A DNA stretch of 64,000 nucleotides, from positions 10,140 through 74,139 of the IMG/VR virus record IMGVR_UViG_3300034082_002445, one strand, 5' to 3'. This DNA comes from a virus (taxonomy: Duplodnaviria > Heunggongvirae > Uroviricota > Caudoviricetes). The position numbers and the translations under genes are program-made. The notes under the pieces are model-generated. The model did not search any database. It had not been told where the DNA came from and worked only from the letters and a program-made list of their open reading frames with translations. Of this stretch, positions 762 to 46,513 are shown one piece after another. Positions within the stretch are counted from its first letter, which is position 1, and each line of letters opens with the position of its first letter.

Positions 762-876
762 CAAAAATGTTCGTAACTTCTGAAAAATAGTTGCAAATAA
801 ATTTTTTATTGTCAAGTATTTCGTTTATATTTACTGTATAATTAAAAACAAAAGATCTTTGACATATTGGTAAAAT

Positions 877-970
877 AATCATAAGCCCATTGGTTGGGAG
901 CACCCCTCAAGGTTGAATCTTTGGATTCTTTATTGTAAAGCTGGAATTGGTTCGAATCCAATTATGATTA
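877..970 (+). ncRNA. tRNA-like element, 94 nt: perfect 7-bp acceptor stem, canonical T-arm and two short hairpins, but no canonical anticodon arm found
   Basis: aatcata/tatgatt acceptor, attgg-ttcgaat-ccaat T-arm; internal hairpins gaatc-tttg-gattc and cttta-ttg-taaag; exhaustive 5/7/5 search found no anticodon arm. Confidence 0.4.
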
Positions 971-975
971 CAAAC

Positions 976-1072
976 AGTCAGTCTTCAGAATGGTATCTGT
1001 ATGACTACATGATAAACCACAAGGCTCAGAAAGTCAATCTTGTGGCTGTAGGTTCGAATCCTACACTGACTA
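976..1072 (+). ncRNA. tRNA-like element, 97 nt: perfect acceptor stem and T-arm, 7-bp internal hairpin, no canonical anticodon arm
   Basis: agtcagt/actgact acceptor, gtagg-ttcgaat-cctac T-arm, ccacaag...cttgtgg hairpin. Confidence 0.4.
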
Positions 1073-1202
1073 CAAAGTCCAGGAGTAATTAACTTGGTAC
1101 CTGAGGTGTTCGAAAACCTCGATTGATTATGGTGTAAAGGTGCACAGCAGAACGTAATAGGGACGCAAGATTAAGGTTCAATTCCTTTTTAGTCAGCAAT
1201 TT

Positions 1203-1288
1203 GGATCGGTTGAGCAATTGGTTGGCTCAGCGGACTGTAAATCCGCCCTCTTACGAGCATGTAGGTTCGAGTCCTACCCGGTCCACCA
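1203..1288 (+). tRNA. tRNA-Tyr(GTA), type II, CCA encoded
   Basis: Acceptor ggatcgg/ccggtcc, anticodon gcgga-ctGTAaa-tccgc, long variable arm, T-arm gtaggttcgagtcctac. Confidence 0.85.
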
Positions 1289-1421
1289 AGAAAGTTGATT
1301 GGGGAATAGTATACTGTAACCTGATGATGGAGGTGGTATATAAGAGTTTGGAATCATCTTAGTAATGCCAATCGTAAAAACAGATGTCCACTGAACCATC
1401 TTCTGTTTTCTTTCTTTTTAC

Positions 1422-1492
1422 ACGTTTGTGGTGCAATGGTAGCATACCGGTCTCCAAAACCGTTGATGGGGGTTCGAATCCCTCCAAGCGTG
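1422..1492 (+). tRNA. tRNA-Trp(CCA)
   Basis: Acceptor acgtttg/caagcgt, anticodon loop ctCCAaa, T-arm gggggttcgaatccctc. Confidence 0.7.
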
Positions 1493-1497
1493 CAAAT

Positions 1498-1574
1498 GGT
1501 CCTTTAGCTCAGTTGGTTAGAGCGCCGCACTCATAATGCGAGGGTCACAGGTTCAAATCCTGTAGGGACCACCA
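1498..1574 (+). tRNA. tRNA-Met(CAT), elongator type, CCA encoded
   Basis: Acceptor ggtcctt/agggacc, loop ctCATaa, T-arm acaggttcaaatcctgt. Confidence 0.8.
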
Positions 1575-1578
1575 ACAT

Positions 1579-1650
1579 AGTTTATTAGTTCAATGGATAG
1601 AACACTTGACTACGGATCAAGAGATAAGGGTTCGAATCCTTTATAAACTA
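1579..1650 (+). tRNA. tRNA-Arg(ACG)
   Basis: Acceptor agtttat/ataaact, anticodon cttga-ctACGga-tcaag, T-arm aagggttcgaatccttt. Confidence 0.8.
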
Positions 1651-1656
1651 CTAAAT

Positions 1657-1730
1657 TGCGATATGGTAGAGTTGGTTTCTTACGATGCTCTCATAAGGCA
1701 TAGACACTGGTTCGAGTCCAGTTGTCGCAA
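1657..1730 (+). tRNA. second tRNA with CAT anticodon (Met, or Ile2 via lysidine)
   Basis: Acceptor tgcgata/tgtcgca, anticodon atgct-ctCATaa-ggcat, T-arm actggttcgagtccagt. Confidence 0.75.
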
Positions 1731-2432: not shown

Positions 2433-3305
2433 ATGGCAAAAGCATTAGTTACAGGTGGAGCAGGTTTTATTGGATCTAATTTGGTCGACTTCTTATTAAA
2501 GGAAGGACACGAAGTTGAGGTTTGGGATGACTTATCCACTGGTAAACTTGAAAGACTTTCTAAAGAAGTAGAATTCAAAAGATTAGACTTAACTAGAGAT
2601 GTTCTACCAGATATTGAAGTTGATTGGGTATTTCACTTAGCAGCACCAGTATCTGTTCAAGAATCTTTGGAAAATCCATCTAAATATATGTATGGTTGTT
2701 TTGGTACAACTTATAGAATGTTAGATTGGTCTAGAAGAAATAGTGCTAAGAGCTTTACGTTAGCATCGACCGCTGCTGTGTATGGAGAAACAGAACAAAT
2801 ACCTGTTAAAGAAACAGATGAATTGAATCCTATTTCTCCATACGCTGAATGGAAATTAAAAGCTGAAGATTGTTTAAGCATGTACAAATCATATTTTACA
2901 TGTACAGCACTCAGATTCTTTAATGTCTATGGCAACGGTCAAAGTAGCACTGGAAGTTATGCTCCAGCTGTTGCAAGATTTTTAGATCAATATAGATCTG
3001 AACAACCAATAACAGTGACAGGTTCTGGCTTACAAACCAGAGATTATGTCAATGTTAATGATATATGTTCAGCACTATATGAATCTGGAAAAAGAATTGG
3101 ACCATTCTTAATAATGAATGTTGGATCAGGCAAAGAAATAGCTATCTTAGACATAGCAAAAGCCTTTGAAACAAATATAACATTCATTGATAAAAGAAAA
3201 GAACCAATGAGATCTGGAGCTGATATTACTTTAATTAAAAGTAAATTAGCATGGAGACCAAAGGAAAATATCTTTGAATGGATCAAACATAATTTAGATC
3301 TTTGA
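2433..3305 (+). CDS. NAD-dependent sugar epimerase/dehydratase (extended SDR; UDP-glucose 4-epimerase-like)
   Basis: Product MAKALVTGGAGFIGSNLV... with Rossmann GxxGxxG and catalytic YAEWK (YxxxK); the ORF-track start at 2382 lies inside tRNA-Leu, so the start is moved to ATG 2433. Confidence 0.8.
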   Translation: MAKALVTGGAGFIGSNLVDFLLKEGHEVEVWDDLSTGKLERLSKEVEFKRLDLTRDVLPDIEVDWVFHLAAPVSVQESLENPSKYMYGCFGTTYRMLDWSRRNSAKSFTLASTAAVYGETEQIPVKETDELNPISPYAEWKLKAEDCLSMYKSYFTCTALRFFNVYGNGQSSTGSYAPAVARFLDQYRSEQPITVTGSGLQTRDYVNVNDICSALYESGKRIGPFLIMNVGSGKEIAILDIAKAFETNITFIDKRKEPMRSGADITLIKSKLAWRPKENIFEWIKHNLDL

Positions 3306-3319
3306 CATATTGGTAAAAT
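3297..3319 (+). promoter_or_regulatory. Conserved motif gatcTTTGACATATTGGTAAAAT (copy 3 of 4); its TTGA overlaps the epimerase stop codon
   Basis: Near-identical copies at 491-511, 854-876, 3297-3319 and 3714-3727, all inside the tRNA array. Confidence 0.4.
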
Positions 3320-3390
3320 AAAGAAATTAGGATGCATACAGCAAATTTAAAAACTTTTATTGGAAAAAGCAAAACTGCATCCTGTTAAAT

Positions 3391-19744: not shown

Positions 19745-19838
19745 TTGTTCGTAACTTTTTAGAAAATAATTCAGCCCAAATTTTTTAGTTTGGGCTTTTT
19801 TATGTATATTAGCTGTATAATTAAAAGATAAATAACTT
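19745..19838 (+). promoter_or_regulatory. Intergenic cassette: TAATTGTTCGTAACTTTTT, terminator hairpin (agcccaaa/tttgggct + T7), then TGTATAATTAAAAG
   Basis: One of 13 related cassettes (766, 19745, 20658, 24799, 25860, 27962, 28620, 29225, 33508, 33724, 39955, 43386, 46427). Confidence 0.6.
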
Positions 19839-20657: not shown

Positions 20658-20757
20658 TTGTTCGTAACTTTTTAAGATCCGGGTGAATTTATTTTCATCC
20701 GGATTTTTTTATGTCAAATGTTTTGTGTATATTTACAGTATAATTAAAAGAAAGAAA
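20658..20757 (+). promoter_or_regulatory. Intergenic cassette: TTGTTCGTAACTTTTT, terminator hairpin, TGTCAAA-N9-TATATTTAC-N2-TATAATTAAAAG
   Basis: Hairpin atccgggtgaatttattttcatccggat + T7; compensatory base changes among copies at 24799, 27962 and 43386. Confidence 0.65.
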
Positions 20758-21501
20758 ATGCCACAGATATTTAAAGTAGGAGGATGTGTAAGGGACAAGT
20801 TTCTTGGATTAGAATCCAAAGATATAGATTTTACATTTGTATTGGATGACTTATCCGGATCAGTCCAGGAAGGTTTCGCAACAATGGAAGATCATCTTAA
20901 ACAAGAAGGTTTTGAAGTGTTCTTGAGCACTCCAGACTGTTTTACTATTAGGGCTAAGTTTCCTAAAGGGCACCAATTTAGTGGCCTAGTGGCTGACTTT
21001 GTAATGGCTCGTAAAGAAGTTGGTTACATGGAAGGAACTCGTCAGCCTATTCTAGAACTTGGAACTCTGGCCGATGATTTACTTCGTCGAGATTTTACAG
21101 TCAATGCTTTAACTGAAGACATTGATGGAAACATTATTGATCTTTTTGGTGGTCAAGAGGACCTAAAACAAGGTTTGCTTAGAACACCGTTGCCTGCAAA
21201 AATGACTATGATGGATGATCCATTGAGAATCATGAGGGCTTTGAGGTTTAAAATCACTAAAGGATTTAGCATCCATGATGATATTTGGATGGCAATGATG
21301 CAACCTGAAATCTTAGAAAAATTAAGAACGACAGTTAGTGCTGAAAGAATTCGCGATGAGGTTTTCAAAATGATGAAGCATGACACTGTTGCAACTATCA
21401 AATTGCTACATTTAGTCGATGCTCAATCAATCCCAGGCTTTTTAGACTTGGTCTTTGATCGAGGCATGTGGTTAAAACCAACTTTTGAAAAGAAACAATA
21501 A
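20758..21501 (+). CDS. tRNA nucleotidyltransferase (CCA-adding enzyme, Pol-beta head domain)
   Basis: MPQIFKVGGCVRDKFLG...RRDFTVNAL...DDPLRIMRALRF; the ORF-track start at 20683 lies in the promoter cassette, so the start is moved to ATG 20758. Confidence 0.8.
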   Translation: MPQIFKVGGCVRDKFLGLESKDIDFTFVLDDLSGSVQEGFATMEDHLKQEGFEVFLSTPDCFTIRAKFPKGHQFSGLVADFVMARKEVGYMEGTRQPILELGTLADDLLRRDFTVNALTEDIDGNIIDLFGGQEDLKQGLLRTPLPAKMTMMDDPLRIMRALRFKITKGFSIHDDIWMAMMQPEILEKLRTTVSAERIRDEVFKMMKHDTVATIKLLHLVDAQSIPGFLDLVFDRGMWLKPTFEKKQ

Positions 21502-21539
21502 GATAAGTTGTTATATAATTAAATAAAAACAAGTATTAT

Positions 21540-22076
21540 ATGGCAACTACAGCACAATTAATGGCAGCTCTTGAAAAATTAACCGCAGATGGTGAGAAAT
21601 TTCCAGGCATGCCTTCAGTAAAAACTATTATTGAAAACTATATCAAAAAGAAATACCCTGAGTATGAACAATTTGATACAGCTGCTGAAAGAAAGAAATT
21701 CATCGATGACACTTATAAAGTGGTAGAACAAGAAGTTAAGATGCAAATTTATGTGGTTAAATCTACTTATGCTAATATAAAAGCTGGTATAACACAAGTA
21801 CAAGATACTATTAAAGCTACTATTGCGAGTGCTGCTATTCCTTCGGTTTTACCAAATGCGGGCGGACCTTCATTACCAAATCCTTTAAGTACATTACAAG
21901 AAGCCAGTGCAAAAGTTAATCAAATGTTGGCTATCTTAAATAACTTAGTTAATCAATTTGTTGGCTTGTTAGGAGCAGCAATCAAAATTGAATTAACAGT
22001 ACCAGATGCTGTAGTGGCTTTGATCGATATAATAGCAACACTAAGACAAGCTATTTTAGCAATCCCAAAAGTATAA
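21540..22076 (+). CDS. hypothetical protein
   Basis: ORF track. Confidence 0.45.
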   Translation: MATTAQLMAALEKLTADGEKFPGMPSVKTIIENYIKKKYPEYEQFDTAAERKKFIDDTYKVVEQEVKMQIYVVKSTYANIKAGITQVQDTIKATIASAAIPSVLPNAGGPSLPNPLSTLQEASAKVNQMLAILNNLVNQFVGLLGAAIKIELTVPDAVVALIDIIATLRQAILAIPKV

Positions 22077-22090
22077 TCAAATAAAACATA

Positions 22091-23221
22091 ATGGAAAGAA
22101 AACTAGCATCTGTACAGAGAATCGCTAGCATTAGACCAATTGAGGGTGCTGATGCTATCGAAGTGGCAAGAATCAACAACTGGGATGTTGTTGTTAAAAA
22201 GAACGAGTTTAAAGAAGGAGAACTTTGTGTTTACTTTGAAATTGATTCATTCTTACCAATCAGAGAAGAGTTTGAATTCTTACGTAAGAGCTCATTTAAA
22301 AAGATGGGTGACCAAGAAGGATTTCGCTTAAAGACTATTAGACTAAGAGGCCAAGTTTCTCAAGGTTTAGTAGTTCCTATTACTATCTTAAATGGTGATT
22401 ACATTATTGGAATCTCTCAACAACCACACGGAGATCAATTACAATTAGGACCTTATGATGATGCTTTAGTAATCGAAGAAGGTGCAGATGTAACTGAATT
22501 GTTAGGCGTAGAGAAATATGAACCACCAATTCCAGCTGAATTGTCTGGTAAAGTCAAAGGTTACTTTCCATCATTTATTCATAAAACTGATGAAGAACGA
22601 GTTCAAAACTTGGTTAAAGAATATGCACAATGGAAAGAACAAGATCTGGACTTCTATGTGACTGAGAAATTAGATGGATCTTCAGCAACTTATTACTATA
22701 ATAATGGTGTCTTTGGTGTATGTTCAAGAAACTTAGAACTAGCAGAACCTGAAGAATTTGTAGCAGGAATGGTAATGTGTGATGACGGTATCGAAAGACC
22801 ACGTCAACAAAATTCATTTTGGAAAGTAGCTCAAGAATTAGGACTCAAAGAAAAGTTAGAAGCTTATGGTCGAAATATCTCTATTCAAGGCGAATTGATT
22901 GGTGAAGGGATCCAAGGAAATCCTTACAAAATCAAGGGACAAACTGTTAGATTCTTTAATGTATTTGATATTGATACACAAGAGTACTATGGTTTACCAA
23001 TGTTCTTAGCAACTATGCAACATACTTTAAAATTGGAAACTGTACCAGTATTGGAATTTCCATGTAAGTTACCAGATACTATCGATGAATTATTGGCTTA
23101 TGCTGATGCAAAATCAGTCCTAAATCCTAATTTCGATAGAGAAGGCGTAGTTATTAGAAGTTTGGATCGTAAGATTAGTTTTAAAGCTATTTCGAATAAG
23201 TTTTTAATGAATGAAAAGTAA
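22091..23221 (+). CDS. ATP-dependent RNA ligase with N-terminal OB-fold tRNA-binding (EMAP/Myf-like) domain
   Basis: N-terminus SVQRIASIRPIEGADAIEVARINNWDVVVKK..GELCVYFEIDSFLP is tRNA-binding-domain-like; nucleotidyltransferase motif I TEKLDGSS (KxDG). Confidence 0.6.
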   Translation: MERKLASVQRIASIRPIEGADAIEVARINNWDVVVKKNEFKEGELCVYFEIDSFLPIREEFEFLRKSSFKKMGDQEGFRLKTIRLRGQVSQGLVVPITILNGDYIIGISQQPHGDQLQLGPYDDALVIEEGADVTELLGVEKYEPPIPAELSGKVKGYFPSFIHKTDEERVQNLVKEYAQWKEQDLDFYVTEKLDGSSATYYYNNGVFGVCSRNLELAEPEEFVAGMVMCDDGIERPRQQNSFWKVAQELGLKEKLEAYGRNISIQGELIGEGIQGNPYKIKGQTVRFFNVFDIDTQEYYGLPMFLATMQHTLKLETVPVLEFPCKLPDTIDELLAYADAKSVLNPNFDREGVVIRSLDRKISFKAISNKFLMNEK

Positions 23222-23547
23222 TGGATAACAGGAATATTTTAAAGGCATTGACATTTATCTTATCAGAAAGAGGCGTAGGTAAAACTGAATTGTTAAAAAG
23301 AGGTATTAGTAATTACGATCGACCTTTTATTTATGTGTGCATGAACAAAGAAGCTGGATTAGATGCATTTCATGGTAAACCAAACCCAAATGCTAAGTTG
23401 GTTGCAATAGACAGAATAGAAGAATTGATTGGCGAACACAAACCAGTTATTGTAGATCAAGAGGTTATCAGAAAGATCTGTGCAGATTCGTGGCTGTATA
23501 TGTCCAAATTAGAATTGCTTATTAAACCATCTAATATCGATATATAA
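23221..23547 (+). CDS. hypothetical protein
   Basis: ORF track. Confidence 0.4.
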   Translation: MDNRNILKALTFILSERGVGKTELLKRGISNYDRPFIYVCMNKEAGLDAFHGKPNPNAKLVAIDRIEELIGEHKPVIVDQEVIRKICADSWLYMSKLELLIKPSNIDI

Positions 23548-23566
23548 CTTAAAATAAGTTAAATCA

Positions 23567-24172: not shown

Positions 24173-24192
24173 AAAATTATAAAAATAAATTG

Positions 24193-24798: not shown

Positions 24799-24900
24799 AA
24801 ATTGTTCGTAACTTTATTAGATCCAGGTGAATTTATTTTCATCTGGATTTTTTTATGTCAAAAACTTTTTGTATATTTACAGTATAATCAAACAAACAAC
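24799..24900 (+). promoter_or_regulatory. Intergenic cassette (TTGTTCGTAACTTT, hairpin, promoter boxes)
   Basis: Hairpin atccaggtgaatttattttcatctggat: G-C to A-T compensatory change relative to the copy at 20678. Confidence 0.6.
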
Positions 24901-25724: not shown

Positions 25725-25872
25725 TTGCGAAAAGGATCAGATTATTGTACCAAAGCAAATAGCAACTGAAACAAGCATCAAAGAAACAAAGAAGCCCAAG
25801 AAAAAACTTGGGTTTTTTAAACGATTGAAGGCCAGAAGGTTAGCAAAAAAAGCTAAAAATGTTCGCAAGTAA
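25681..25872 (+). CDS. Small putative lipoprotein
   Basis: MKKTLMLLLILAFTSC lipobox-like signal, basic C-terminus; overlaps the previous ORF by 44 nt. Confidence 0.35.
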   Translation: MKKTLMLLLILAFTSCEKDQIIVPKQIATETSIKETKKPKKKLGFFKRLKARRLAKKAKNVRK

Positions 25873-25928
25873 ATTTTTTTATGTCAAAACTTATTAGTAT
25901 ATTAGCTCTATAATTAAAAGATAAAGAT
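25860..25928 (+). promoter_or_regulatory. Promoter cassette (TTTTTATGTCAAA...TATATTAGCTCTATAATTAAAAG)
   Basis: Matches the cassette consensus. Confidence 0.5.
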
Positions 25929-27961: not shown

Positions 27962-28060
27962 AATGTTCGTAACTTTTTTAGGTCTGGGTGAATTTATTTT
28001 CATCCAGATTTTTTTATGTCAAATATTTGTCGTATATTTACTCTATAATTAAAAAACAAG
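27962..28060 (+). promoter_or_regulatory. Intergenic cassette (ATGTTCGTAACTTTTTT, hairpin tctgggtgaa/ttcatccaga, promoter boxes)
   Basis: C-G to T-A compensatory change in the hairpin relative to other copies. Confidence 0.6.
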
Positions 28061-28282: not shown

Positions 28283-28645
28283 ATGGAGATCTATACATTC
28301 CCACGTAGTCGGTTTTATGGTGATGTTTTTGCCATAGTCAAAACCCTATCAGGTACTTATGTATGTCCAGATTGGCACCCAGTGCCCGATGGGACTACTA
28401 GGGATCAGATCAGGTTCTTCGAAGCAGATAATACGTCTAAAAAACAAGTAGCACCATCAGCTCCTAAAGAGTCCAAACCTAAGCAAGAATGGACAGTAAA
28501 TGGATCTAAAGCTGGTGTAACTTACACAGTTTCAGATAATAATGGCTCTTGGAGCTGCACATGTCCATCAAATAGTTTTCATCGAGGTGACTGTAAGCAC
28601 ATTAAGGCTAAAAAAGCAGAATTGTTCGCAACTTCTGAAAAATAA
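28283..28645 (+). CDS. SWIM zinc-finger protein
   Basis: WSCTCPSNSFHRGDCKHI (CxCxnCxH); the 3' end of the CDS encodes the TTGTTCGCAACTTCTG motif as ELFATSEK. Confidence 0.5.
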   Translation: MEIYTFPRSRFYGDVFAIVKTLSGTYVCPDWHPVPDGTTRDQIRFFEADNTSKKQVAPSAPKESKPKQEWTVNGSKAGVTYTVSDNNGSWSCTCPSNSFHRGDCKHIKAKKAELFATSEK

Positions 28646-28702
28646 ATTTTGGGTTGTCAAATAAATCACGTATATTTACTCTATAATTAAAAGCAAAACA
28701 AC
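28620..28702 (+). promoter_or_regulatory. Cassette copy whose TTGTTCGCAACTT element lies inside the preceding coding sequence
   Basis: ttgttcgcaacttctgaaaaataa...ttgggttgtcaaataaatcacgtatatttactctataattaaaag. Confidence 0.5.
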
Positions 28703-29020
28703 ATGCAAAACATCAAATCACAAATCGAATCATGGGTAGCTAACGAAGCTCAAGCTACAATCAACAGCTATTATGCTGCTCATTTATCTAGTTTAAATGT
28801 TCCTAGACTTACTGTCAAGTTTGGCGTAAAGTACGCTCAAGTCTGGAACGGTACTACTATCTGGGCTTTTATAGCCTTATACAATACTCCTGAAAAAGCT
28901 GAAATAGCAGGTGACTTACTTAAACCAGCATCTTGGAGAGCACCAGCTAAACACAGTCGCGGTAACATCTTAGAAGGTACAGCATCTTATGGTCCTTACG
29001 GTCCAGCTTACATTAAATAA
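28703..29020 (+). CDS. hypothetical protein
   Basis: ORF track. Confidence 0.45.
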   Translation: MQNIKSQIESWVANEAQATINSYYAAHLSSLNVPRLTVKFGVKYAQVWNGTTIWAFIALYNTPEKAEIAGDLLKPASWRAPAKHSRGNILEGTASYGPYGPAYIK

Positions 29021-29021
29021 A

Positions 29022-29240
29022 ATGTTTTACGATATAATTAATTTTAAAAAGAATCTTGGTCTAGACGCCGATAAAATAATGGAATTTTGTTTAGGCGAAA
29101 ACTGGAAGAATATAACCGTTATACAGAGTAGAGAAATGTTTAATAAAAAGTTATCATTAAATTTAACAAACGATAATAACTTTGTAGATTCTGCCCTGAT
29201 AATAAAAGATGCATATTATTCAAAATGTTCGCAACTTTAG
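29022..29240 (+). CDS. hypothetical protein
   Basis: In frame with the ORF-track entry starting at 28989; start moved to ATG 29022, just after the upstream stop. Confidence 0.4.
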   Translation: MFYDIINFKKNLGLDADKIMEFCLGENWKNITVIQSREMFNKKLSLNLTNDNNFVDSALIIKDAYYSKCSQL

Positions 29241-29305
29241 TAAAATAAATTTTTTACTGTCAAATAAATCACGTATATTTACATATAATTAATCAGATAA
29301 ACAAC
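29225..29305 (+). promoter_or_regulatory. Cassette copy (ATGTTCGCAACTTTAG ... ACTGTCAAATAAATCACGTATATTTACATATAATTAATC)
   Basis: Matches the cassette consensus. Confidence 0.5.
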
Positions 29306-32429: not shown

Positions 32430-32451
32430 ATTTAAATAACTAACATTTTAA

Positions 32452-32486
32452 GATCCCTGTGTATTTTTACACGGGGATTTTTTTGT
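32452..32486 (+). terminator. rho-independent terminator
   Basis: gatccctgtgta-ttttt-acacggggatt followed by T7. Confidence 0.6.
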
Positions 32487-32525
32487 AATAAAAAGGGTAA
32501 TATATACAGAAAAAATCTGATTATA

Positions 32526-33507: not shown

Positions 33508-33567
33508 TCTTGTAAAATAATTCAGCCTGCATTTTTTTATGTCAAATATTTTTAGTATATTAGCAGT
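33508..33567 (+). promoter_or_regulatory. Cassette copy (hairpin then TTTTTATGTCAAATATTTTTAGTATATTAGCAGT)
   Basis: Matches the cassette consensus. Confidence 0.45.
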
Positions 33568-33723: not shown

Positions 33724-33805
33724 ATTGTTCGTAACTTTTAGATAAAAAGCTTTCCTATATCAAAAGAATTTAGTATATTTACAGTATAACTTAAAAACAA
33801 AAACA
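33724..33805 (+). promoter_or_regulatory. Cassette copy (ATTGTTCGTAACTTTTAG ... TAGTATATTTACAGTATAACTTAAAAAC)
   Basis: Matches the cassette consensus. Confidence 0.5.
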
Positions 33806-35068: not shown

Positions 35069-36181
35069 ATGAACAAAGTAACATTAGATAAGTATGTAGA
35101 AGCAGGTTGGTTGATTCGTCAGTCACACCCTACTTTGCCATTGTCAATCTACAATTACTCTCAATCTACACAGTATGAGAAGCATTGGGATGATATTACT
35201 TTGTCTTGTCGTGGAGTTATTACTGATGATGAAAATGGCAAGATTATCGTTAAGCCATTTCCAAAGTTCTTTAACTATGAAGAATTGCCAGCAACTATGA
35301 TTCCATGGTCAAACTCTGACTATGTTTATGTTCAAGAAAAAATGGATGGATCCTTGGGTATTTTATTTAACTATAAGAATGAGTGGATCTTATCAACTCG
35401 TGGATCTTTTACATCAGATCAGGCCATTCGAGGCTTAGAGATCTTAAAGGCCAAATACATCTTAGATGCTTTTGAACCTTCTGTTGCCTATTTATGTGAG
35501 ATTATTTACCCAGAAAATAGAATTGTGGTTGATTATGGCAAAGAAAAGATTACATTTTTAGGTGCAGCCATTAATCGATCTTGGAATTGGAAAGAAGGTG
35601 GAGACGATGAATTACATTGGACTACAGCACAGGCCTATTTTAAAATGTCAGGTATTAAAAAGTCTGATATTGTTAAAACTACTCAAGTCTTTGATTTGGG
35701 TCCAGAATTATACTCAACTTTAAAAGCTTTGAACAAAGCCAACGAAGAAGGTTACGTCTTACGTTTCTTTCCTTCTAACTTAAGGGTCAAAATCAAATTC
35801 GAGGATTACTGTACTTTGCACCGAATCTTAACTAATGTTTCTTCATACGATATTTGGGAAAACTTAATGAAATTTGGTAAATTGCCAGAGCAAATGCTTA
35901 ATGATGTACCAGATGAATTTTATGATTGGGTTCATGCAACTCAAGCCAAAATCACGGCAGATTTTAAACAAGTAATGCACTATCATTTGGCAGTTTGTTC
36001 TTCGATCTTAAGAGATGGTATGATGACTCAAAAAGAATTTGCTGAACAAGTTTTAGCTTTGAGTGATGTTAATCATGGTATCATTTTTGGCATTGCAAAT
36101 GGCAAAGATGTGAGCGAAAAGGCCTGGAAAATGGTTAAGCCAGAATATAGTAAGCCTTTTTCAAATGTCGTTGATATATAA
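35069..36181 (+). CDS. T4 RnlA-like RNA ligase 1 (tRNA-repair ligase)
   Basis: N-terminal SIYNYSQ..CRGVI..KFFNYEE and motif I QEKMDGSLGILF parallel T4 Rnl1 SYNYAS..CRGIMF..KFFNLNE..KEDGSLVSTY. Confidence 0.75.
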   Translation: MNKVTLDKYVEAGWLIRQSHPTLPLSIYNYSQSTQYEKHWDDITLSCRGVITDDENGKIIVKPFPKFFNYEELPATMIPWSNSDYVYVQEKMDGSLGILFNYKNEWILSTRGSFTSDQAIRGLEILKAKYILDAFEPSVAYLCEIIYPENRIVVDYGKEKITFLGAAINRSWNWKEGGDDELHWTTAQAYFKMSGIKKSDIVKTTQVFDLGPELYSTLKALNKANEEGYVLRFFPSNLRVKIKFEDYCTLHRILTNVSSYDIWENLMKFGKLPEQMLNDVPDEFYDWVHATQAKITADFKQVMHYHLAVCSSILRDGMMTQKEFAEQVLALSDVNHGIIFGIANGKDVSEKAWKMVKPEYSKPFSNVVDI

Positions 36182-38221: not shown

Positions 38222-38631
38222 GATATATAAAGAAAATTGGTTCCGTACAGCAACTTATACAACCATATACTTATATAAACGGAAAACAAGGAACCAGGTG
38301 GATCGGTACAGCAAAAAGTACACACAAACTATGACAGAGTCTGGGATAAACGTGGAGCTAATGATTCGTCCTTAGTTTTGAAGCGGCTAGACAAGGTGAA
38401 GACTAACACTGGAAAATAGGTTACACGTCAAACCACCCCAATAGGTGACTAGTAGGATGAAGTTGAAGATAGTAGACTCTCGCGAAAATCAAAGCCGAAG
38501 ACGTTAAACAGGGTTATTCTGCCGAGAAGAAAATAACGAACAACGATCCCGTTAAACATTAAAAGCCACTTCGGTGGCTTTTTTTATGAAACAAGTTTAA
38601 ATTAAGCTGTATAATCAGTATAGATAATATT
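38222..38631 (+). other. 410-bp ORF-free, structured, GC-elevated region downstream of the Ro60-like gene; candidate Y-RNA-like ncRNA(s)
   Basis: Long-range ggttcc/ggaacc stem, repeated gtacagcaa boxes, several hairpins; ends with a terminator at 38561-38586. Confidence 0.3.
38561..38586 (+). terminator. rho-independent terminator
   Basis: aaaagccacttcggtggc followed by T7. Confidence 0.65.
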
Positions 38632-39954: not shown

Positions 39955-40015
39955 TTGAAAATAAATTTTTTTATGTCAAAAGAATTTAGTATATTTACGT
40001 AGTAATAAAATTAGA
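39955..40015 (+). promoter_or_regulatory. Promoter cassette (TTTTTTTATGTCAAAAGAATTTAGTATATTTACGTAGTAATAAAATTAG)
   Basis: Matches the cassette consensus. Confidence 0.5.
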
Positions 40016-43119: not shown

Positions 43120-43121
43120 TC

Positions 43122-43385: not shown

Positions 43386-43489
43386 TTGTTCGTAACTTTT
43401 TAGGTCCGGGTGAATTTATTTTCATCCGGATTTTTTTATGTCAAATATTATTAGTATATTTACATATAACAAATTTAAACTAGACAAAG
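43386..43489 (+). promoter_or_regulatory. Intergenic cassette (TAATTGTTCGTAACTTTTT, hairpin tccgggtgaa/ttcatccgga, promoter boxes)
   Basis: Matches the cassette consensus. Confidence 0.6.
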
Positions 43490-43807: not shown

Positions 43808-43809
43808 TT

Positions 43810-44121
43810 ATGAAAATAACAGCATTAAACACAGAACAAGCCTCAGGCAAAACAAATGGCTCTAGCCTTAAAGGTTACATAGCTTGCAAATACGCAGATC
43901 TAATCTCATTATTGGGTCAGCCAGCTTATGGTCAATCTGGTGACGAAAAAGTCAATTTTGATTGGGTTGTAGAATTTGGAGGTAATTATTTTACCATCTA
44001 CGATTGGAAAACTTACAATGTCCGATATAGCACAGAGAGTTTAAATCAATGGAATGTTGGAGGTAAAGTTTCTGCTGCAGATTTTATTGAATATATAGAA
44101 AAACAAATTAAAAATAAATAA
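43810..44121 (+). CDS. hypothetical protein
   Basis: ORF track. Confidence 0.45.
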   Translation: MKITALNTEQASGKTNGSSLKGYIACKYADLISLLGQPAYGQSGDEKVNFDWVVEFGGNYFTIYDWKTYNVRYSTESLNQWNVGGKVSAADFIEYIEKQIKNK

Positions 44122-44122
44122 G

Positions 44123-44545
44123 ATGAAGAACGTACAGTTATTTGAACAATTCTTGAATGAAGCTGCCATTTTTGACAATGACACAGTAGACATACAGGCA
44201 GCCATCGATATATTAAAGGATCGATTAGAAAAAGAAAATCCAGGTTATTATTCTCTTAGCAAAGGTGTATTTGGCAATGACACTATTATGTTGCTAGTTT
44301 CCTTGGATCCTAAATCAGAATGGTCTAATGGTTATGTTGAAAACTCTAACTACTTTAGAATGGCTATTTATAAAGATGGTAAAATGGAAACATTTGTACA
44401 AAGTCTTTACTATCCTAATGTTCCTGTAAGTTACGAATCTCGTTTAAAGATTAAATTTAGAAAGTCAACTGCCAAATCTATGAAAGATGCTGCTGACAGA
44501 TTAGTTAAATTTATCAATGAAATTAAAAAAGAAATGGGTAAATAA
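44123..44545 (+). CDS. CTS-family protein (MKNVQLFEQFLNEA)
   Basis: Conserved N-terminus. Confidence 0.55.
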   Translation: MKNVQLFEQFLNEAAIFDNDTVDIQAAIDILKDRLEKENPGYYSLSKGVFGNDTIMLLVSLDPKSEWSNGYVENSNYFRMAIYKDGKMETFVQSLYYPNVPVSYESRLKIKFRKSTAKSMKDAADRLVKFINEIKKEMGK

Positions 44546-45012
44546 TGAAGCACATTAAATTATTTGAACAGTTCATTAGTGAAGCTGTACAATATAAAAC
44601 TTTAGATGATGATAAAATCAAAACTAAAGATATTCATGACTGGTTGACTAAGATCAGATATAATGTTGGTAAAAGATTTCCAGCTACAAATGCAAAAACC
44701 AGAGAAGAAAAGATTGCAATCATCATGAATCCTGGATTTCAAGGAGCTTATACTGATTATCACCAACAATATTTTGATAGTTTATTAGCACAATGGCAAG
44801 GTGTTTGCGATAGCAATTTATCATCTAGAGGCATTGATGCTAATACCACAAAGGCAGAAAAAGAAGACATGTTTGACGCACTAGAATCTTGGATCACTAG
44901 AGAAAACGGAATCCTTGATGCTATTAAAGAACTTGGATTTGAATCTTTTGCTGCTAATGAAATAATGGGTGTATCTCACAAGAAGCCATTAAAATTAAAA
45001 CGTAAATATTAA
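44545..45012 (+). CDS. CTS-family protein (MKHIKLFEQFISEA)
   Basis: Conserved N-terminus. Confidence 0.55.
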   Translation: MKHIKLFEQFISEAVQYKTLDDDKIKTKDIHDWLTKIRYNVGKRFPATNAKTREEKIAIIMNPGFQGAYTDYHQQYFDSLLAQWQGVCDSNLSSRGIDANTTKAEKEDMFDALESWITRENGILDAIKELGFESFAANEIMGVSHKKPLKLKRKY

Positions 45013-45013
45013 T

Positions 45014-45460
45014 ATGAAGCACGTAAAACTATTTGAAGACTTCTTAGATGAATCCTTCTTAAATGAAATCGAACCAATCAATGAAATAGCTATGAGCTCT
45101 GCTGGTGTTAAATCTTTTTTAAGAGCAATGTACACTAATGCAGATGTCTTAAAAAAGATGGGCTTTAATAGTTTTAAAGATTTAGTAGGTTATATTAAAT
45201 CTAATGATTTACGAGATTGGGATGAATTAAGAGACGAGGCTAGAGAATATGGCTTAGTAGTAACTGAAGCTATCATGAACGAATCTAAAGAGTCAGATAT
45301 ATTAGCCAAAGAAATTGACAAAGCAATTGTTAAAATTAATGACTCATTGTCATACGAAGATTTTGCATTAGCAGTAGCTAAAGTACTTAAAGATGAATAT
45401 GGTACACATAACTTTGCACCATTCATGGAAGTATTACACAAAGACTTAGGAATAAAATAA
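45014..45460 (+). CDS. CTS-family protein (MKHVKLFEDFLDES)
   Basis: Conserved N-terminus. Confidence 0.55.
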   Translation: MKHVKLFEDFLDESFLNEIEPINEIAMSSAGVKSFLRAMYTNADVLKKMGFNSFKDLVGYIKSNDLRDWDELRDEAREYGLVVTEAIMNESKESDILAKEIDKAIVKINDSLSYEDFALAVAKVLKDEYGTHNFAPFMEVLHKDLGIK

Positions 45461-45470
45461 AGACATAGCA

Positions 45471-45794
45471 ATGAAAAACGTAAAACTATTTGAAGACTTC
45501 TTGAATGAAGCTAAGATTTTAACAAGAGACGAAATGATGAGCACTATGCGTACAAAGTATGGTCTTGATTTTGTAAAAACAACTGAAGAATTCGACGGTG
45601 AAGAAGGTGGTATCTGGTTAGGTGGTAGTGATGATCTTTTAATGCCAAATGCCAAAGATGAGATGTTTAACTACTATCATGGTGGATCTAAATATCCTCA
45701 AGGTATTCATAAAGATCTTGCTAAGTTTCTTGACAAATGTGGCTGGTATGGTCAATTTGCAGATCCAGGAACAGTAATGTTATGGCCAAAATAA
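45471..45794 (+). CDS. CTS-family protein (MKNVKLFEDFLNEA)
   Basis: Conserved N-terminus. Confidence 0.55.
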   Translation: MKNVKLFEDFLNEAKILTRDEMMSTMRTKYGLDFVKTTEEFDGEEGGIWLGGSDDLLMPNAKDEMFNYYHGGSKYPQGIHKDLAKFLDKCGWYGQFADPGTVMLWPK

Positions 45795-45806
45795 AAATAT
45801 AAAATT

Positions 45807-46022
45807 ATGAAAAACGTAAAACTATATCAAGAATTTGTAAACGAAGAAAACGTTGAAGAGGCTATGGTCCAAGTTGCTGGTAAAAACAAACCATCTGGTG
45901 CTCAAGTTCTTGCTATGTTAATTGTAAAATACCTTGATGATAATCTAATTATGCCTTCAAATGCAAATAAGAAGGCAATCACAGAAGAGATTAAGCAGTT
46001 AATTATGGATTCTACTTATTAA
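45807..46022 (+). CDS. CTS-family protein (MKNVKLYQEFVNEE), 71 aa
   Basis: Conserved N-terminus. Confidence 0.5.
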   Translation: MKNVKLYQEFVNEENVEEAMVQVAGKNKPSGAQVLAMLIVKYLDDNLIMPSNANKKAITEEIKQLIMDSTY

Positions 46023-46027
46023 AAGTA

Positions 46028-46426
46028 ATGAAGAAGATCAAACTATATGAAGAGTTCTTAGCTGAGAAGAATCTACAAAATGTAGAAGAAGCTGTTGGCG
46101 ATATGGTTAAAGGTGCTGTAAAAGCTGGAGCTAAAAAAGCTGGTAATGCTCTTCTTAAAGCTACTGGTTTGGATCAAGTCAAGAACCTTATGACTCAAGT
46201 TAAAAAGAACAAAGAAAAAGCAGCTAAAATTGCAAAGAAAGCTCAAGCTGCGGCCAAATCAAAAAAGCCAGCAGAAGAAGCAAGCTTAGATAAAAATCTA
46301 GCAGCAGTGCAACTTAATATGACTAATCTTGATGCTCAAAAGCTACAGCTAAAAGCCAAAGAATTAAACATCAAAAAGCAAATTGCAGCTGAAAAAGCAA
46401 AACCTGATGAACCAAAGAAAAAATAA
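46028..46426 (+). CDS. CTS-family K/A-rich histone H1-like protein
   Basis: MKKIKLYEEFLAEK then KAGAKKAGNALLKA...KKNKEKAAKIAKKAQAAAKSKKPAEE. Confidence 0.55.
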   Translation: MKKIKLYEEFLAEKNLQNVEEAVGDMVKGAVKAGAKKAGNALLKATGLDQVKNLMTQVKKNKEKAAKIAKKAQAAAKSKKPAEEASLDKNLAAVQLNMTNLDAQKLQLKAKELNIKKQIAAEKAKPDEPKKK

Positions 46427-46513
46427 TTGTTCGCAACTTTATTAAAAATACTTAAGCCCAGATTTTTTTATTTGGGCTTTTTTGTTTATATTTACATAGA
46501 TAAATAAAAGATT
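46427..46513 (+). promoter_or_regulatory. Intergenic cassette (TAATTGTTCGCAACTTTATT, hairpin aagcccaga/tttgggctt + T6, then TATATTTACATAGATAAATAAAAG)
   Basis: Matches the cassette consensus. Confidence 0.55.

What the first reader, a model, noticed from the sequence alone, without database searches (positions are those of the whole stretch)
766..46513. Thirteen PeSL-like cassettes (stop-TTGTTCGTAACTT, terminator hairpin, conserved promoter boxes) punctuating small hypothetical genes
A composite element of about 60-100 bp recurs at 766, 19745, 20658, 24799, 25860, 27962, 28620, 29225, 33508, 33724, 39955, 43386 and 46427. (a) TAATTGTTCG(T/C)AACTT begins with, or directly follows, the upstream stop codon; in one case (28620) it is inside the coding sequence, read as ELFATSEK. 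(b) A terminator hairpin shows compensatory changes between copies (ccggg/cccgg, ccagg/cctgg, ctggg/cccag). (c) Three conserved boxes follow: TGTCAAA, TATATTTAC and TATAATTAAAAG. The last box ends 6-12 nt before the start codon. The 20-22 bp spacing between TGTCAAA and TATAAT is not canonical for sigma70, so this may be a phage-specific or Bacteroidetes-type promoter (compare TAnnTTTG at -7). The arrangement mirrors T4 PeSL (promoter-early stem-loop) elements, which drive modular shuffling of small accessory genes in hyperplastic regions.
Basis: seen in the sequence. Interest (0 to 1): 0.7.

Follow-up and report, generated by a model that had tools for sequence, protein, structure and literature searches.

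The report
Repeated terminator-promoter cassettes in a Bacteroidota phage
An uncultured large phage that probably infects Bacteroidota marks the start of its accessory-gene operons with a repeated 60-105 bp cassette (conserved 13-nt box, optional terminator hairpin, Bacteroidota-style promoter), and genes are gained and lost exactly at these cassettes; this resembles the PeSL cassettes of T4-like phages but sits in an unrelated phage with a different promoter type.

Summary
A profile of the promoter core finds exactly the 13 listed copies in the window. It finds 131 copies in 50 related metagenomic phage loci, and every one points the same way as the genes.

- The universal element is TATATT(T/A)(A/G)C ("box 2"). 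It fits the Bacteroidota sigma-A -7 element TAnnTTTG. TATAAT is not the -10 element.
- In 12 unique cassettes the ATG starts exactly 4 nt after this 8-mer. That is leaderless geometry and places the transcription start there.
- A T-run sits at the -33 position.
- TATAATTAAAA is therefore the start of an A-rich leader without a Shine-Dalgarno sequence.
- Only 6 of 13 copies carry a real terminator hairpin, and these show compensatory changes.
- 11 of 13 copies carry the TTGTTCGYAACTT box. Its distance to box 2 falls into steps of about 10 bp.

Three lines of evidence point to a Bacteroidota host. The phage is not demonstrably T4-like, and it encodes an ECF-type sigma factor just outside the window.

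Related genomes show gene insertions, deletions and replacements whose junctions lie in cassettes.

Verdict: these are PeSL-like terminator/promoter cassettes, most likely early promoters read by host RNA polymerase. This is a new variant of a known kind and is moderately interesting.

The parts
767..850 (+). Cassette 1, directly after tRNA-Pro. 13-nt box 767-779; phased A-tracts; T-run and TTGTCAAG; -7 box TTATATTTAC 825-834; leader box 837-848. No hairpin and no ORF; tRNA-like sequence follows.
   Evidence: (z -0.77)
19745..19838 (+). Cassette 2. 13-nt box 19745-19757. Type B terminator hairpin 19773-19796: the -33 T-run forms the loop and the 3' arm replaces TGTCAAA. -7 box GTATATTAGC 19804-19813. 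ATG at 19839.
   Evidence: z -3.26
20658..20757 (+). Cassette 3. 13-nt box 20658-20670; type A terminator hairpin 20674-20707 ending in the T-run; TGTCAAA 20712-20718; -7 box 20727-20736; predicted start near 20740. ATG at 20758 (tRNA nucleotidyltransferase).
   Evidence: z -4.68
24802..24900 (+). Cassette 4. 13-nt box 24802-24814; type A hairpin 24819-24850; TGTCAAA 24856-24862; -7 box 24871-24880. ATG at 24901.
   Evidence: z -4.65
25859..25928 (+). Cassette 5. Degenerate 13-nt box (TGTTCGCAAGT at 25860), only 37 nt from the -7 box. TGTCAAA 25882-25888; -7 box GTATATTAGC 25897-25906. No hairpin. ATG at 25929.
   Evidence: z +0.97
27963..28060 (+). Cassette 6. 13-nt box 27963-27975; type A hairpin 27980-28011; TGTCAAA 28017-28023; -7 box 28032-28041. 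ATG at 28061.
   Evidence: z -4.87
28622..28702 (+). Cassette 7. 13-nt box 28622-28634, inside the end of ORF 28283-28645 (read as ELFATSEK). TGTCAAA 28655-28661; -7 box 28670-28679. No hairpin. ATG at 28703.
   Evidence: z -1.01
29225..29305 (+). Cassette 8. 13-nt box 29225-29237; TGTCAAA 29258-29264; -7 box 29273-29282. No hairpin. ATG at 29306. The 195-bp segment 29027-29221 just upstream is absent from relative L015 and is flanked by the direct repeat AAAATGTT (the left half of the box). A degraded cassette remnant lies at about 29020-29050.
33508..33567 (+). Cassette 9. No 13-nt box. TGTCAAA 33540-33546; -7 box GTATATTAGC 33555-33564. ATG at 33568 lies 4 nt after the 8-mer, giving a predicted leaderless 51-aa ORF.
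   Evidence: (synonymous differences against L015)
33725..33805 (+). Cassette 10. 13-nt box 33725-33737; TATCAAA variant of box 1; -7 box 33773-33782. No hairpin. ATG at 33806. In L015, 1984 bp carrying 3 ORFs and 2 further cassettes replace 33724-33759.
39955..40015 (+). Cassette 11. No 13-nt box. GAAAATAA; T-run; TGTCAAA 39974-39980; -7 box 39989-39998. No hairpin. ATG at 40016.
43386..43489 (+). Cassette 12. 13-nt box 43386-43398; type A hairpin 43402-43433; TGTCAAA 43439-43445; -7 box 43454-43463. ATG at 43490.
   Evidence: z -5.16
46427..46513 (+). Cassette 13. 13-nt box 46427-46439; type B hairpin 46454-46479; -7 box TTATATTTAC 46486-46495. ATG at 46514 (polynucleotide-kinase-like gene). 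In L015 the whole cassette is replaced by 34 nt.
   Evidence: z -2.97

Best explanation
Each copy is a compact boundary between transcription units in a large phage of a Bacteroidota host.

Proposed layout, 5' to 3':
1. A 13-nt box, TTGTTCG(T/C)AACTT (TTGTTAA(T/C)AACTT in relatives), at or just after the upstream stop codon.
2. Either phased A-tracts (GAAAATAA...) or a GC-rich hairpin with a U-tract that ends the upstream transcript.
3. A promoter with a T-run at about -36 to -30 (the place of the Bacteroidota -33 element), a conserved TGTC at -28 to -25, a T-rich stretch around -18, and the -7 element TATATT(T/A)(A/G) followed by C.
4. A transcription start 4-5 nt after that element. The conserved TATAATTAAAA is then the first bases of a roughly 20-nt A-rich leader without SD, or the mRNA is leaderless when the ATG sits there.

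I infer that unmodified host RNA polymerase with the Bacteroidota primary sigma factor reads these promoters early in infection. They drive tRNA-repair, counter-defence and ORFan genes, and also the phage's own ECF-type sigma factor, which would serve a later promoter class.

Because the same 60-100 bp recurs many times per genome in one orientation, recombination between copies inserts, deletes and swaps the genes between them, as proposed for PeSLs.

What is shown: repetition, orientation, conservation pattern, hairpin covariation, leaderless geometry, host phylum, and junctions of indels in cassettes.

What is inferred: the exact transcription start, which sigma factor reads the promoter, early timing, terminator efficiency, and that the cassettes cause the rearrangements and do not merely mark them.
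For: Repetition and strand:
- 13 of 13 window copies and 131 of 131 copies in related loci lie on the gene strand.
- in the right flank of the same genome, the cassettes that accompany minus-strand genes lie on the minus strand.

Conservation over 96 unique cassettes:
- The highest information is at TATATT(T/a)(A/g)C, TGTC and TTTT.
- Box 3 is only moderately conserved.

Transcription start geometry:
- the gap between the 8-mer and the ATG is exactly 4 nt in 12 unique cassettes from two gene families. It is never 0-3 or 5-13 nt, and otherwise 14-37 nt.
- (PMC6847099): the F. johnsoniae -7 element is T-12 A-11 T-8 T-7 T-6 G-5, with 4-5 nt to the start. Its -33 element is weak and there are AT-rich motifs at -18 and -28.
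- differences from L015 are synonymous in the leaderless frame.
- sigma70-type sites are not enriched (79 found against 67.5 +/- 7.2 expected).

Host phylum:
- SD-like motifs precede 1 of 99 genes, against 13% in the background. A at -3 is 68%.
- the best cellular relatives of the phage M42 peptidase are nearly all Bacteroidota.
- the phage sigma factor is closest to those of huge uncultured phages, Prevotella Lak phages and a crAss-like phage.

Use of host core polymerase:
- an ECF-type sigma gene lies about 1.5 kb left of the window. It is itself preceded by TTCGTAACTT...TTATATTAGC-AGT-ATG.

Terminators:
- hairpin z-scores of -3.0 to -5.2.
- compensatory changes in the type A stem.
- 15 different type B stems in the same register.

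Gene flux:
- 3 of 7 indels between the window and L015 end in cassettes.
- 8 unrelated gene families follow the cassette downstream of the conserved DUF2828 gene.
- homology breaks at the cassette's 3' end. L033 has an extra 70-aa gene plus a second cassette, flanked by an identical 28-nt repeat.
Against: - No transcript data exist, so the start site, timing and termination are all inferred.
- The -7 box deviates from the host consensus at a nearly invariant position: G-5 is A in 77% of cassettes, and where G is kept T-6 is usually A.
- The -33 position holds TTTT, not TTTG.
- TGTC at -28 to -25 and C at -4 are strongly conserved, and the known Bacteroidota consensus does not explain them. A phage factor or the phage sigma could be involved.
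- 7 of 13 window copies have no terminator.
- 4 of 7 indels against L015 are not at cassettes. Because intergenic cassettes are also the places where indels are tolerated, association does not prove cause.
- The test for within-genome homogenisation was only weakly positive and biased: mean identity between within-genome paralogues was 0.66, against 0.69 for orthologues.
- Only about 77 kb of the genome was seen, so a phage RNA polymerase cannot be excluded.
Confidence: 0.62

Rival explanations
1. The cassettes are middle-class promoters read by host core polymerase carrying the phage's own ECF-type sigma factor, not by the host primary sigma.
For: - The phage encodes a sigma70-family ECF-type factor next to the window.
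- The promoter has conserved positions that the host consensus does not explain: C-4, TGTC at -28 to -25, and A in place of G at -5.
- The whole roughly 50-bp conserved block is longer than a typical host promoter.
Against: - The sigma gene itself sits behind a cassette-type -7 box in leaderless geometry, and downstream of a full cassette. Something else must therefore read this promoter type first.
- The box does not resemble known ECF -35 (AAC) / -10 (CGT) motifs (my own knowledge).
- A second, separate promoter-like class, GATATATA(A/G), exists for the non-cassette genes and is a natural target for the phage sigma.
Confidence: 0.18
2. The cassettes are activator-dependent promoters in the manner of T4 MotA/AsiA middle promoters. 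A phage protein would bind TGTCAAA at about -28, or the 13-nt box further upstream, and recruit host polymerase to the -7 box.
For: - TGTC is 75-97% conserved, about 12 nt upstream of the -7 box. That is where no sigma contact is expected and is similar to the placement of a MotA box (T4 layout and my own knowledge).
- The 13-nt box keeps distances of 37-38, 46-47, 56-58 or 67-68 nt to the -7 box in 47 of 49 unique cassettes, across at least six different spacer types. These are steps of one helical turn.
- The box occurs almost only with the promoter and never on the other strand.
Against: - Two window copies and many copies in relatives replace TGTC with a hairpin arm but keep the rest of the cassette.
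- Two window copies, and about half of the cassettes in relatives, lack the 13-nt box.
- No MotA-, AsiA- or other recognisable activator-like protein was found among about 60 window proteins searched.
- The spacing steps could come from duplication of 10-11-nt A-tract units.
Confidence: 0.12
3. The cassettes are early promoters for a phage-encoded (virion) RNA polymerase, as in phiKZ/AR9-type jumbo phages.
For: - Relatives sit on contigs of 145-260 kb.
- Early promoters of virion polymerases in jumbo phages are roughly 10-nt AT-rich, highly conserved motifs centred near -10 (PMC7598289). Box 2 resembles these.
Against: - No RNA polymerase subunit was found in about 77 kb.
- The phage carries a sigma factor, which implies use of host core polymerase.
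- The conserved upstream T-run at the -33/-35 position and the A-tracts are typical of sigma/alpha-dependent promoters.
Confidence: 0.05
4. The copies are selfish or neutral dispersed repeats (MITE-like) with no regulatory role.
For: The repeats are dispersed and similar within each genome, and they are associated with indels.
Against: - The copies are strictly co-oriented with the genes: 131 of 131, and reversed where the genes are reversed.
- They keep a fixed distance to start codons.
- Conservation is position-specific and matches promoter elements, not uniform across the repeat.
- There are no terminal inverted repeats or target-site duplications.
Confidence: 0.03

Closest known systems
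PeSLs (promoter-early stem-loops) of T4-like myoviruses (Arbiol et al. 2010, PMC2839356; Comeau et al. 2014, PMC4122927)
   Same: - The order of parts is the same: AT-rich region, stem-loop just upstream of the promoter, promoter, translation-initiation region, ATG.
- There are many co-oriented copies concentrated among small accessory genes, with none in the late-looking (lysis/fibre gene) block at 47-63 kb of the window.
- Degraded half-copies occur.
- Insertions, deletions and replacements between close relatives have junctions in the copies.
- One case shows a gene plus cassette flanked by directly repeated cassette cores.
   Different: - The promoter is not sigma70-type. It has no TTGACA-N17-TATAAT arrangement. 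It has a Bacteroidota-like -7 box with a T-run at -33.
- There is no Shine-Dalgarno sequence, and some copies are leaderless.
- The hairpin is optional (6 of 13) and sits in three different registers. One register uses the -33 T-run as its loop.
- An extra 13-nt box lies at helical-turn distances upstream.
- The phage is not demonstrably T4-like.
- Terminator activity and mini-circles are untested.
Bacteroidota primary-sigma (sigma-ABfr) promoters, -33 TTTG / -7 TAnnTTTG (Bayley 2000; Chen 2007; Baez 2019, PMC6847099)
   Same: - T-12, A-11, T-8 and T-7 are invariant.
- Positions -10 and -9 are non-G.
- The inferred gap to the start is 4-5 nt.
- There are AT-rich stretches near -18 and -28.
- A T-rich element sits 19 nt upstream.
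- Leaders are A-rich and lack SD.
   Different: - G-5 is A in 77% of cassettes; otherwise the box reads TTAG.
- The -33 element is TTTT, not TTTG.
- There are extra conserved positions: C-4 and TGTC at -28 to -25.
- Far more upstream sequence is conserved than in host promoters.
T4 middle promoters and PmSLs (MotA box at -30 plus a -10 element)
   Same: A conserved box (TGTCAAA) lies about 10-12 nt upstream of the -10-like element, in place of a -35 hexamer. PmSL versions with stem-loops exist in phage nt-1.
   Different: - The box sequence is unrelated to TGCTT.
- The box is dispensable in several copies.
- No MotA or AsiA homologue was found.
- The T-run at the canonical -35/-33 position is kept.
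Early promoters of virion RNA polymerases of phiKZ/AR9-type jumbo phages (PMC7598289)
   Same: A roughly 10-nt, AT-rich, nearly invariant motif lies just upstream of the start of early genes and recurs many times.
   Different: - Here there are conserved upstream elements.
- The phage carries a sigma factor.
- No phage RNA polymerase genes were found in the 77 kb seen.

Membership tests
PeSL cassettes of T4-like phages | Composite order: AT-rich region, stem-loop immediately upstream of the promoter, promoter, translation-initiation region, start codon | tested here: met
   The order is the same in all copies. A significant hairpin is present in only 6 of 13 window copies.
PeSL cassettes of T4-like phages | Sigma70-like early promoter (-35 TTGACA-like, N17, -10 TATAAT-like) | tested here: not met
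   TGTCAA lies 21 nt from TATAAT and 10 nt from TATATT. The sigma70 scan does not pick up the cassettes and shows no enrichment. The conserved core is TATATT(T/A)(A/G)C.
PeSL cassettes of T4-like phages | Shine-Dalgarno sequence at the 3' end of the element | tested here: not met
   SD-like motifs precede 1 of 99 genes and none lie in cassettes. Leaders are A-rich.
PeSL cassettes of T4-like phages | Located in hyperplastic regions of a T4-like myovirus genome | tested here: inconclusive
   The region is rich in accessory genes and has T4-like auxiliary functions (Rnl1, Pnk, ligase). The RecA-like protein and the three large proteins tested from the 47-61 kb region have no T4-like matches in 50,697 phage genomes. 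Core genes lie outside the sequence seen.
PeSL cassettes of T4-like phages | Close association with insertions, deletions and replacements between related genomes | tested here: met
   3 of 7 indels against L015 end in cassettes. Eight unrelated gene families follow one conserved cassette position. Junctions lie at the cassette's 3' end, and one module is flanked by an identical 28-nt repeat.
PeSL cassettes of T4-like phages | Stem-loop is an effective terminator; the promoter is active early; recombination yields mini-circles | not testable with these tools
   This needs RNA 5'/3'-end mapping and PCR or long reads on phage DNA.
Bacteroidota sigma-A promoter (-33/-7) | -7 element TAnnTTTG (TAHHTTTG) | tested here: inconclusive
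   T-12, A-11, T-8 and T-7 are 98-100% conserved. Positions -10 and -9 are T and A. T-6 is 79%. Position -5 is A in 77% and G in 23%. That gives 5 of 6 specified positions in nearly every copy and a perfect match in a few relatives.
Bacteroidota sigma-A promoter (-33/-7) | Transcription start 4-5 nt downstream of the -7 element | tested here: inconclusive
   No transcript data exist. Indirect support: the ATG lies exactly 4 nt after the 8-mer in 12 unique cassettes and never 0-3 or 5-13 nt after it.
Bacteroidota sigma-A promoter (-33/-7) | -33 element TTTG about 19 nt upstream | tested here: inconclusive
   TTTT (92-97% conserved) occupies that position and G is absent. The element is also weak in F. 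johnsoniae.
Bacteroidota sigma-A promoter (-33/-7) | The host belongs to Bacteroidota | tested here: met
   Three lines support this: SD depletion with A at -3; relatives of the M42 peptidase are almost all Bacteroidota; relatives of the sigma factor are in Prevotella Lak phages and a crAss-like phage. The evidence is indirect because there is no isolate.
Intrinsic (Rho-independent) terminator | GC-rich stem-loop followed directly by a U-tract, maintained by compensatory change | tested here: met
   Six window copies qualify, with stems of 10-14 bp followed by T6-7 and z-scores of -3.0 to -5.2. Covariation is shown. The other seven copies do not qualify.
Jumbo-phage virion-RNAP early promoter | The phage encodes its own multisubunit RNA polymerase | tested here: inconclusive
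   None was found among the proteins of about 77 kb. A sigma factor is present. The rest of the genome was not seen.

The most novel reading that the evidence does not exclude
The 13-nt box (TTGTTCGYAACTT / TTGTTAAYAACTT) is held one, two, three or four helical turns upstream of the promoter, and two indel junctions fall inside it or at its edge. It may be the site of a dedicated phage (or host) protein. The cassettes would then form a factor-controlled system: a common operator that switches all early units together, and/or a site-specific recombination target that captures and excises ORFs in the manner of integron cassettes. They would not be merely passive promoter/terminator repeats that recombine by homology.
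Probability: 0.17. Interest if true: 0.7.

Novelty: new variant of a known kind. Interest (0 to 1): 0.45.

Why it matters
- It gives a concrete, testable promoter and terminator model for an abundant, uncultured clade of large Bacteroidota phages, where no transcription signals are known.
- It lets transcription units and leaderless genes be annotated directly from sequence.
- It shows that PeSL-style architecture (a repeated terminator-promoter module that doubles as a recombination substrate for accessory genes) is not peculiar to T4-like phages of Proteobacteria. It has arisen with a quite different promoter grammar, which argues for a general solution to accessory-gene flux in large phages.
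- The cassettes are also ready-made compact insulator, promoter and leader parts for engineering Bacteroidota.

Tried and rejected
- An exact scan of IMG/VR for TGTCAAA-N10-GTATATTTAC gave only chance hits in coding DNA.
- The 14-mer TTGTTCGTAACTTT is not clade-specific. Only 16 of 116 stretches that matched carried cassettes.
- Megablast and tblastn of window DNA and of the large 987-aa protein (47406-50366) against 50,697 phage genomes found nothing.
- T4-likeness was considered because the DUF2828 protein best matches KVP40-type phages at about 54% identity. It was not supported by the RecA-like protein.
- The sigma70 consensus scan was uninformative.
- Rfam at gathering thresholds found only the tRNAs. 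Nothing was found in the noncoding stretch after DUF2828.
- MAFFT re-registered the type B hairpins by sequence, so the tool count could not be used for them. I centred them by script instead. This selects for pairing, and the caveat is stated in the report.
- Strain-level contigs carrying the 105-aa protein were collinear with the window and added no rearrangements.
- The L019/L039 pair looked like a clean gene swap at the ATG but is only a small local difference, so I dropped it.
- The test for within-genome homogenisation of cassettes was weak and biased.
- The 13-nt box was absent from 385 kb of Bacteroidota genomic DNA. This sample is too small to exclude a host site.
- Reading the box as an ECF -35 element (GTAAC) was rejected because no -10 partner lies at a fixed distance.
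- PHROG and Pfam searches of about 60 proteins found no activator, anti-sigma or polymerase-modifying candidate.

Full report
**1. What the window is**

The window is 64 kb at about 33% GC, with nearly all genes on the + strand and 24 tRNA genes between 407 and 11623. It has no nucleotide match among 50,697 deposited phage genomes. The 987-aa protein (47406-50366) has no tblastn match there, and the other large proteins of the 47-61 kb region match no PHROG family of known function.

Recognisable genes are accessory and RNA-repair functions:
- Rnl1-like and PHA02142/Rnl2-like RNA ligases
- a polynucleotide-kinase-like protein
- tRNA nucleotidyltransferase
- DNA ligase
- a 2'-5' ligase/Acb1-like protein
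- metallophosphatases
- a homing endonuclease
- M42 aminopeptidase
- lysins
- a collagen-repeat fibre protein
.

A DUF2828 (TROVE-like) protein brought in 80 related IMG/VR loci from contigs of up to 256 kb or more. The window therefore comes from an uncultured clade of large phages.

**2. Check of the observation**

- TTGTTCGYAACTT with at most 1 mismatch gives 10 hits, all on the + strand, against 0.26 expected.
- I aligned the copies on the most constant block and built an nhmmer profile of the promoter core. It returns 107, then 131, copies in the related loci, every one on the gene strand.
- In the flanks of the same genome, reached through identical proteins, there are three more copies on the left. 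On the right there are four to five copies on the minus strand that go with minus-strand genes, and one on the plus strand with a plus-strand gene. Orientation therefore follows the genes.
- In the window the cassettes occupy 12 of the 29 intergenic gaps of at least 57 nt. Other gene junctions have a median gap of 5 nt. The cassettes delimit units of 1-10 genes.

**3. Anatomy, corrected**

Over 96 unique cassettes, the information content peaks in three blocks. The numbering assumes a start 4 nt after the 8-mer.
- T A T A T T (T/a) (A/g) C at -12 to -4
- T G T C at -28 to -25
- T T T T at -36 to -33

Weaker blocks are T-rich at -21 to -15 and AAAATA at -54 to -49.

Many relatives replace it with ATATCAAATTAAAAC, ACTGTAATTAAAAC and similar sequences.

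The decisive point is the distance to the start codon. In 12 unique cassettes from two unrelated gene families, including window copy 33555, the ATG begins exactly 4 nt after the 8-mer TATATTxx. No cassette has a gap of 0-3 or 5-13 nt, and the rest have 14-37 nt with a mode of 24-25. For the window copy, the two differences from the 98%-identical relative L015 are synonymous in that frame. A start codon in the place of "TATAAT" rules out TATAAT as the -10 element. It places the transcription start 4-5 nt after TATATTxx, which is the geometry of leaderless mRNAs.

**4. Which polymerase**

Baez et al. (PMC6847099, read) describe the F. johnsoniae primary-sigma promoter:
- It has T-12, A-11, T-8, T-7, T-6 and G-5, with non-G at -10 and -9.
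- There are 4-5 nt to the start.
- The -33 element is barely visible.
- There are AT-rich motifs at -18 and -28.

The cassette core fits this at 5 of 6 specified positions and in geometry. The T-run lies exactly where TTTG-N19 would put the -33 element. That T-run is retained even in copies where a hairpin arm replaces TGTCAAA.

A sigma70-type scan is not enriched and does not pick up the cassettes.

Three independent lines put the host in Bacteroidota:
- SD-like motifs precede 1 of 99 genes, against 13% in the background. A-rich leaders have 68% A at -3.
- The best cellular relatives of the phage M42 peptidase are almost all Saprospiraceae, Fluviicola, Pedobacter, Chitinophaga, Flavobacteriales and similar taxa.
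- The phage sigma factor is closest to those of huge uncultured phages, Prevotella Lak phages and a crAss-like phage.

That sigma factor is ECF-type. It scores Sigma70_r2 at 1.8e-11 and r4_2 at 5e-7, and TIGR02937 above its cut-off. It lies about 1.5 kb left of the window. It is itself preceded by TTCGTAACTT ... TTATATTAGC-AGT-ATG and by a full cassette one gene upstream.

From this I infer that host polymerase with the host primary sigma reads the cassette promoter early. The phage sigma more likely serves the second promoter-like class, (G)ATATATA(A/G). That class precedes many non-cassette genes, including the lysis and fibre genes, and has no conserved -35.

The unexplained conserved positions (C-4, A in place of G at -5, TGTC) keep the alternatives alive: reading by the phage sigma, or dependence on an activator. 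A phage RNA polymerase is unlikely but not excluded, because only about 77 kb was seen.

**5. Terminators**

Six window copies have a strong hairpin followed by T6-7 (z -3.0 to -5.2). Seven have none (z -1.8 to +1.1).

The hairpins sit in three registers:
- Type A ends at the T-run, so the terminator's U-tract is also the -33 T-run.
- Type B uses the T-run as its loop. Its 3' arm replaces TGTCAAA and a second T-run abuts the -7 box.
- Type C occurs only in relatives. It is a long hairpin that encloses the 13-nt box.

For type A, 8 sequences show 95.5% paired cells and 3 pairs changed on both sides. No shuffle reaches the observed pairing or covariation, and slid controls give 24-60% paired.

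For type B, 15 different stems in the same place all pair at 9 of 9 positions, with 28 extra pair types. These sequences were chosen because they fold, so the percentage paired is partly by construction.

The structure, not the sequence, is what is kept. This is as expected for intrinsic terminators.

**6. The 13-nt box**

- The box is present in 11 of 13 window copies and in about half of the copies in relatives.
- It reads TTGTTCG(T/C)AACTT or TTGTTAA(T/C)AACTT. The arms GTT/AAC are invariant and the centre varies.
- The exact pattern has 76 hits in the related loci and none on the minus strand. Nearly all hits are followed by a promoter.
- Its distance to the -7 box is 37-38, 46-47, 56-58 or 67-68 nt in 47 of 49 unique cassettes. 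This holds across at least six different kinds of spacer, including A-tracts and all three hairpin types.
- Steps of one helical turn suggest a function on DNA, such as a bound protein or a bend on one face relative to the polymerase. They argue against a signal in the upstream mRNA. Duplication of 10-11-nt A-tract units could give the same pattern.
- No candidate binding protein was identified.
- The box was not found in 385 kb of Bacteroidota DNA. That sample is small.

**7. Gene flux at cassettes**

Against L015, whose DUF2828 protein is 98% identical, there are seven indels in 20 kb. Three end in cassettes:
- A 195-bp segment (29027-29221) is flanked by the direct repeat AAAATGTT, the left half of the box. 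It sits next to a degraded cassette remnant.
- In L015, 1984 bp with three ORFs and two extra cassettes replace 33724-33759.
- In L015, 34 nt replace cassette 13.

Across the clade, 36 of 75 loci have a cassette after the DUF2828 gene and its conserved roughly 380-nt noncoding tail. The first gene behind that cassette falls into 8 unrelated families, although the DUF2828 proteins of most of these loci (34 of the 36) are 84-90% identical to the window's.

Pairwise comparisons (L047, L033 and L023 against L028) show homology ending within a few bases of the cassette's 3' end. Downstream they have 931 bp, 237 bp, or nothing extra. L033 carries an extra 70-aa gene plus a second minimal cassette, flanked by an identical 28-nt TTATATTTACATATCTAATTTAAACAAA. 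This is the configuration expected from recombination between tandem cassettes.

Four of the seven L015 indels are elsewhere. Cassettes are also simply places where indels are tolerated. The causal role is therefore inferred, to the same standard as in the PeSL papers.

**8. Comparison with known systems**

PeSLs were defined in T4-like phages as an AT-rich region, a stem-loop just upstream of a sigma70-like early promoter, an SD sequence and a start codon. They are enriched in hyperplastic regions and near indels.

The present cassettes work like PeSLs and share the order of parts and the link to gene flux. They fail three defining features that were tested or could be partly tested:
- a sigma70-type promoter (tested, not met)
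- an SD sequence (tested, not met)
- a T4-like genome (unsupported)

They also add features not described for PeSLs: the helically phased 13-nt box, hairpins interleaved with the promoter in three registers, and leaderless variants.

I file them as a new variant of a known kind, not as members of the PeSL family.

**9. Verdict**

The PeSL analogy and the Bacteroidetes-type idea are right. The choice of TATAAT as the -10 element is wrong, and T4 relatedness is unsupported.
- Interest is moderate. This is a useful, testable promoter and terminator grammar for an uncultured clade of Bacteroidota phages, and evidence that PeSL-like architecture recurs outside the T4-like phages.
- It is not a new principle unless the 13-nt box turns out to be the site of a dedicated regulator or recombinase.

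Noticed in passing
window 5264, 6960, 10088, 10588, 13713, 15240, 23540, 32500, 36174, 38223, 44091, 47126, 51076, 53230, 63638: There is a second promoter-like class, (G)ATATATA(A/G), 10-40 nt upstream of many genes that lack a cassette. Two sites directly follow terminator hairpins (51076, 53230). Nothing is conserved at -35, which recalls T4 late promoters (TATAAATA). This class is a candidate target of the phage ECF sigma factor.
   Followed up: partly
L177 6002-6652 (about 1.5 kb left of window position 1; window 1 = L177 7569): The phage encodes an ECF-type sigma70-family factor (Sigma70_r2 and r4_2; TIGR02937 above its cut-off). Its relatives are in huge uncultured phages, Prevotella Lak phages and a crAss-like phage. 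The gene is preceded by a cassette-type -7 box with the ATG 4 nt after it.
   Followed up: partly
window 853-1200 and 3296-3321: Between cassette 1 and tRNA-Tyr lie three stretches of about 100 nt. They have tRNA-like acceptor pairing and T-arm sequences (GGTTCGAATCC) that neither ARAGORN nor Rfam calls. A 26-nt sequence, AAGATCTTTGACATATTGGTAAAATA, occurs at 853 and again, identical, at 3296, and twice in relative L064.
   Followed up: partly
window 38222-38631: About 410 nt of noncoding sequence lie directly after the DUF2828 (TROVE/Ro-like) gene. Roughly the first 330 nt are conserved at about 83% in relatives, and an ATATATAA site sits at the start. This is a candidate Y-RNA-like partner RNA. 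No Rfam family matched, even at E <= 1.
   Followed up: partly
window 29020-29050: This is a degraded cassette remnant. The left half of the 13-nt box (AAAATGTT) is fused to TTACGATATAATTAAT, as if the terminator and promoter core had been deleted. It resembles the half-PeSLs described in T4-like phages.
   Followed up: partly
window 32450-32481: A strong terminator hairpin outside any cassette has a loop containing GTATTTTTAC, a near copy of the -7 box. An ATATATAC site follows it at 32500.
   Followed up: no
window 20758-24795, 35069-36181, 46514-47104: There is a dense set of RNA-repair and counter-defence genes: tRNA nucleotidyltransferase, a PHA02142/Rnl2-like ligase, a 2'-5' ligase/Acb1-like protein, an Rnl1-like ligase and a polynucleotide-kinase-like protein. 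Together with the 24 tRNA genes, this suggests a response to host tRNA-cleaving defences.
   Followed up: no
window 54914-57772: A 952-aa protein carries many collagen triple-helix repeats (Pfam 2.9e-69). It coincides with a local GC rise to 46.5% at 56-58 kb and is probably a fibre.
   Followed up: no
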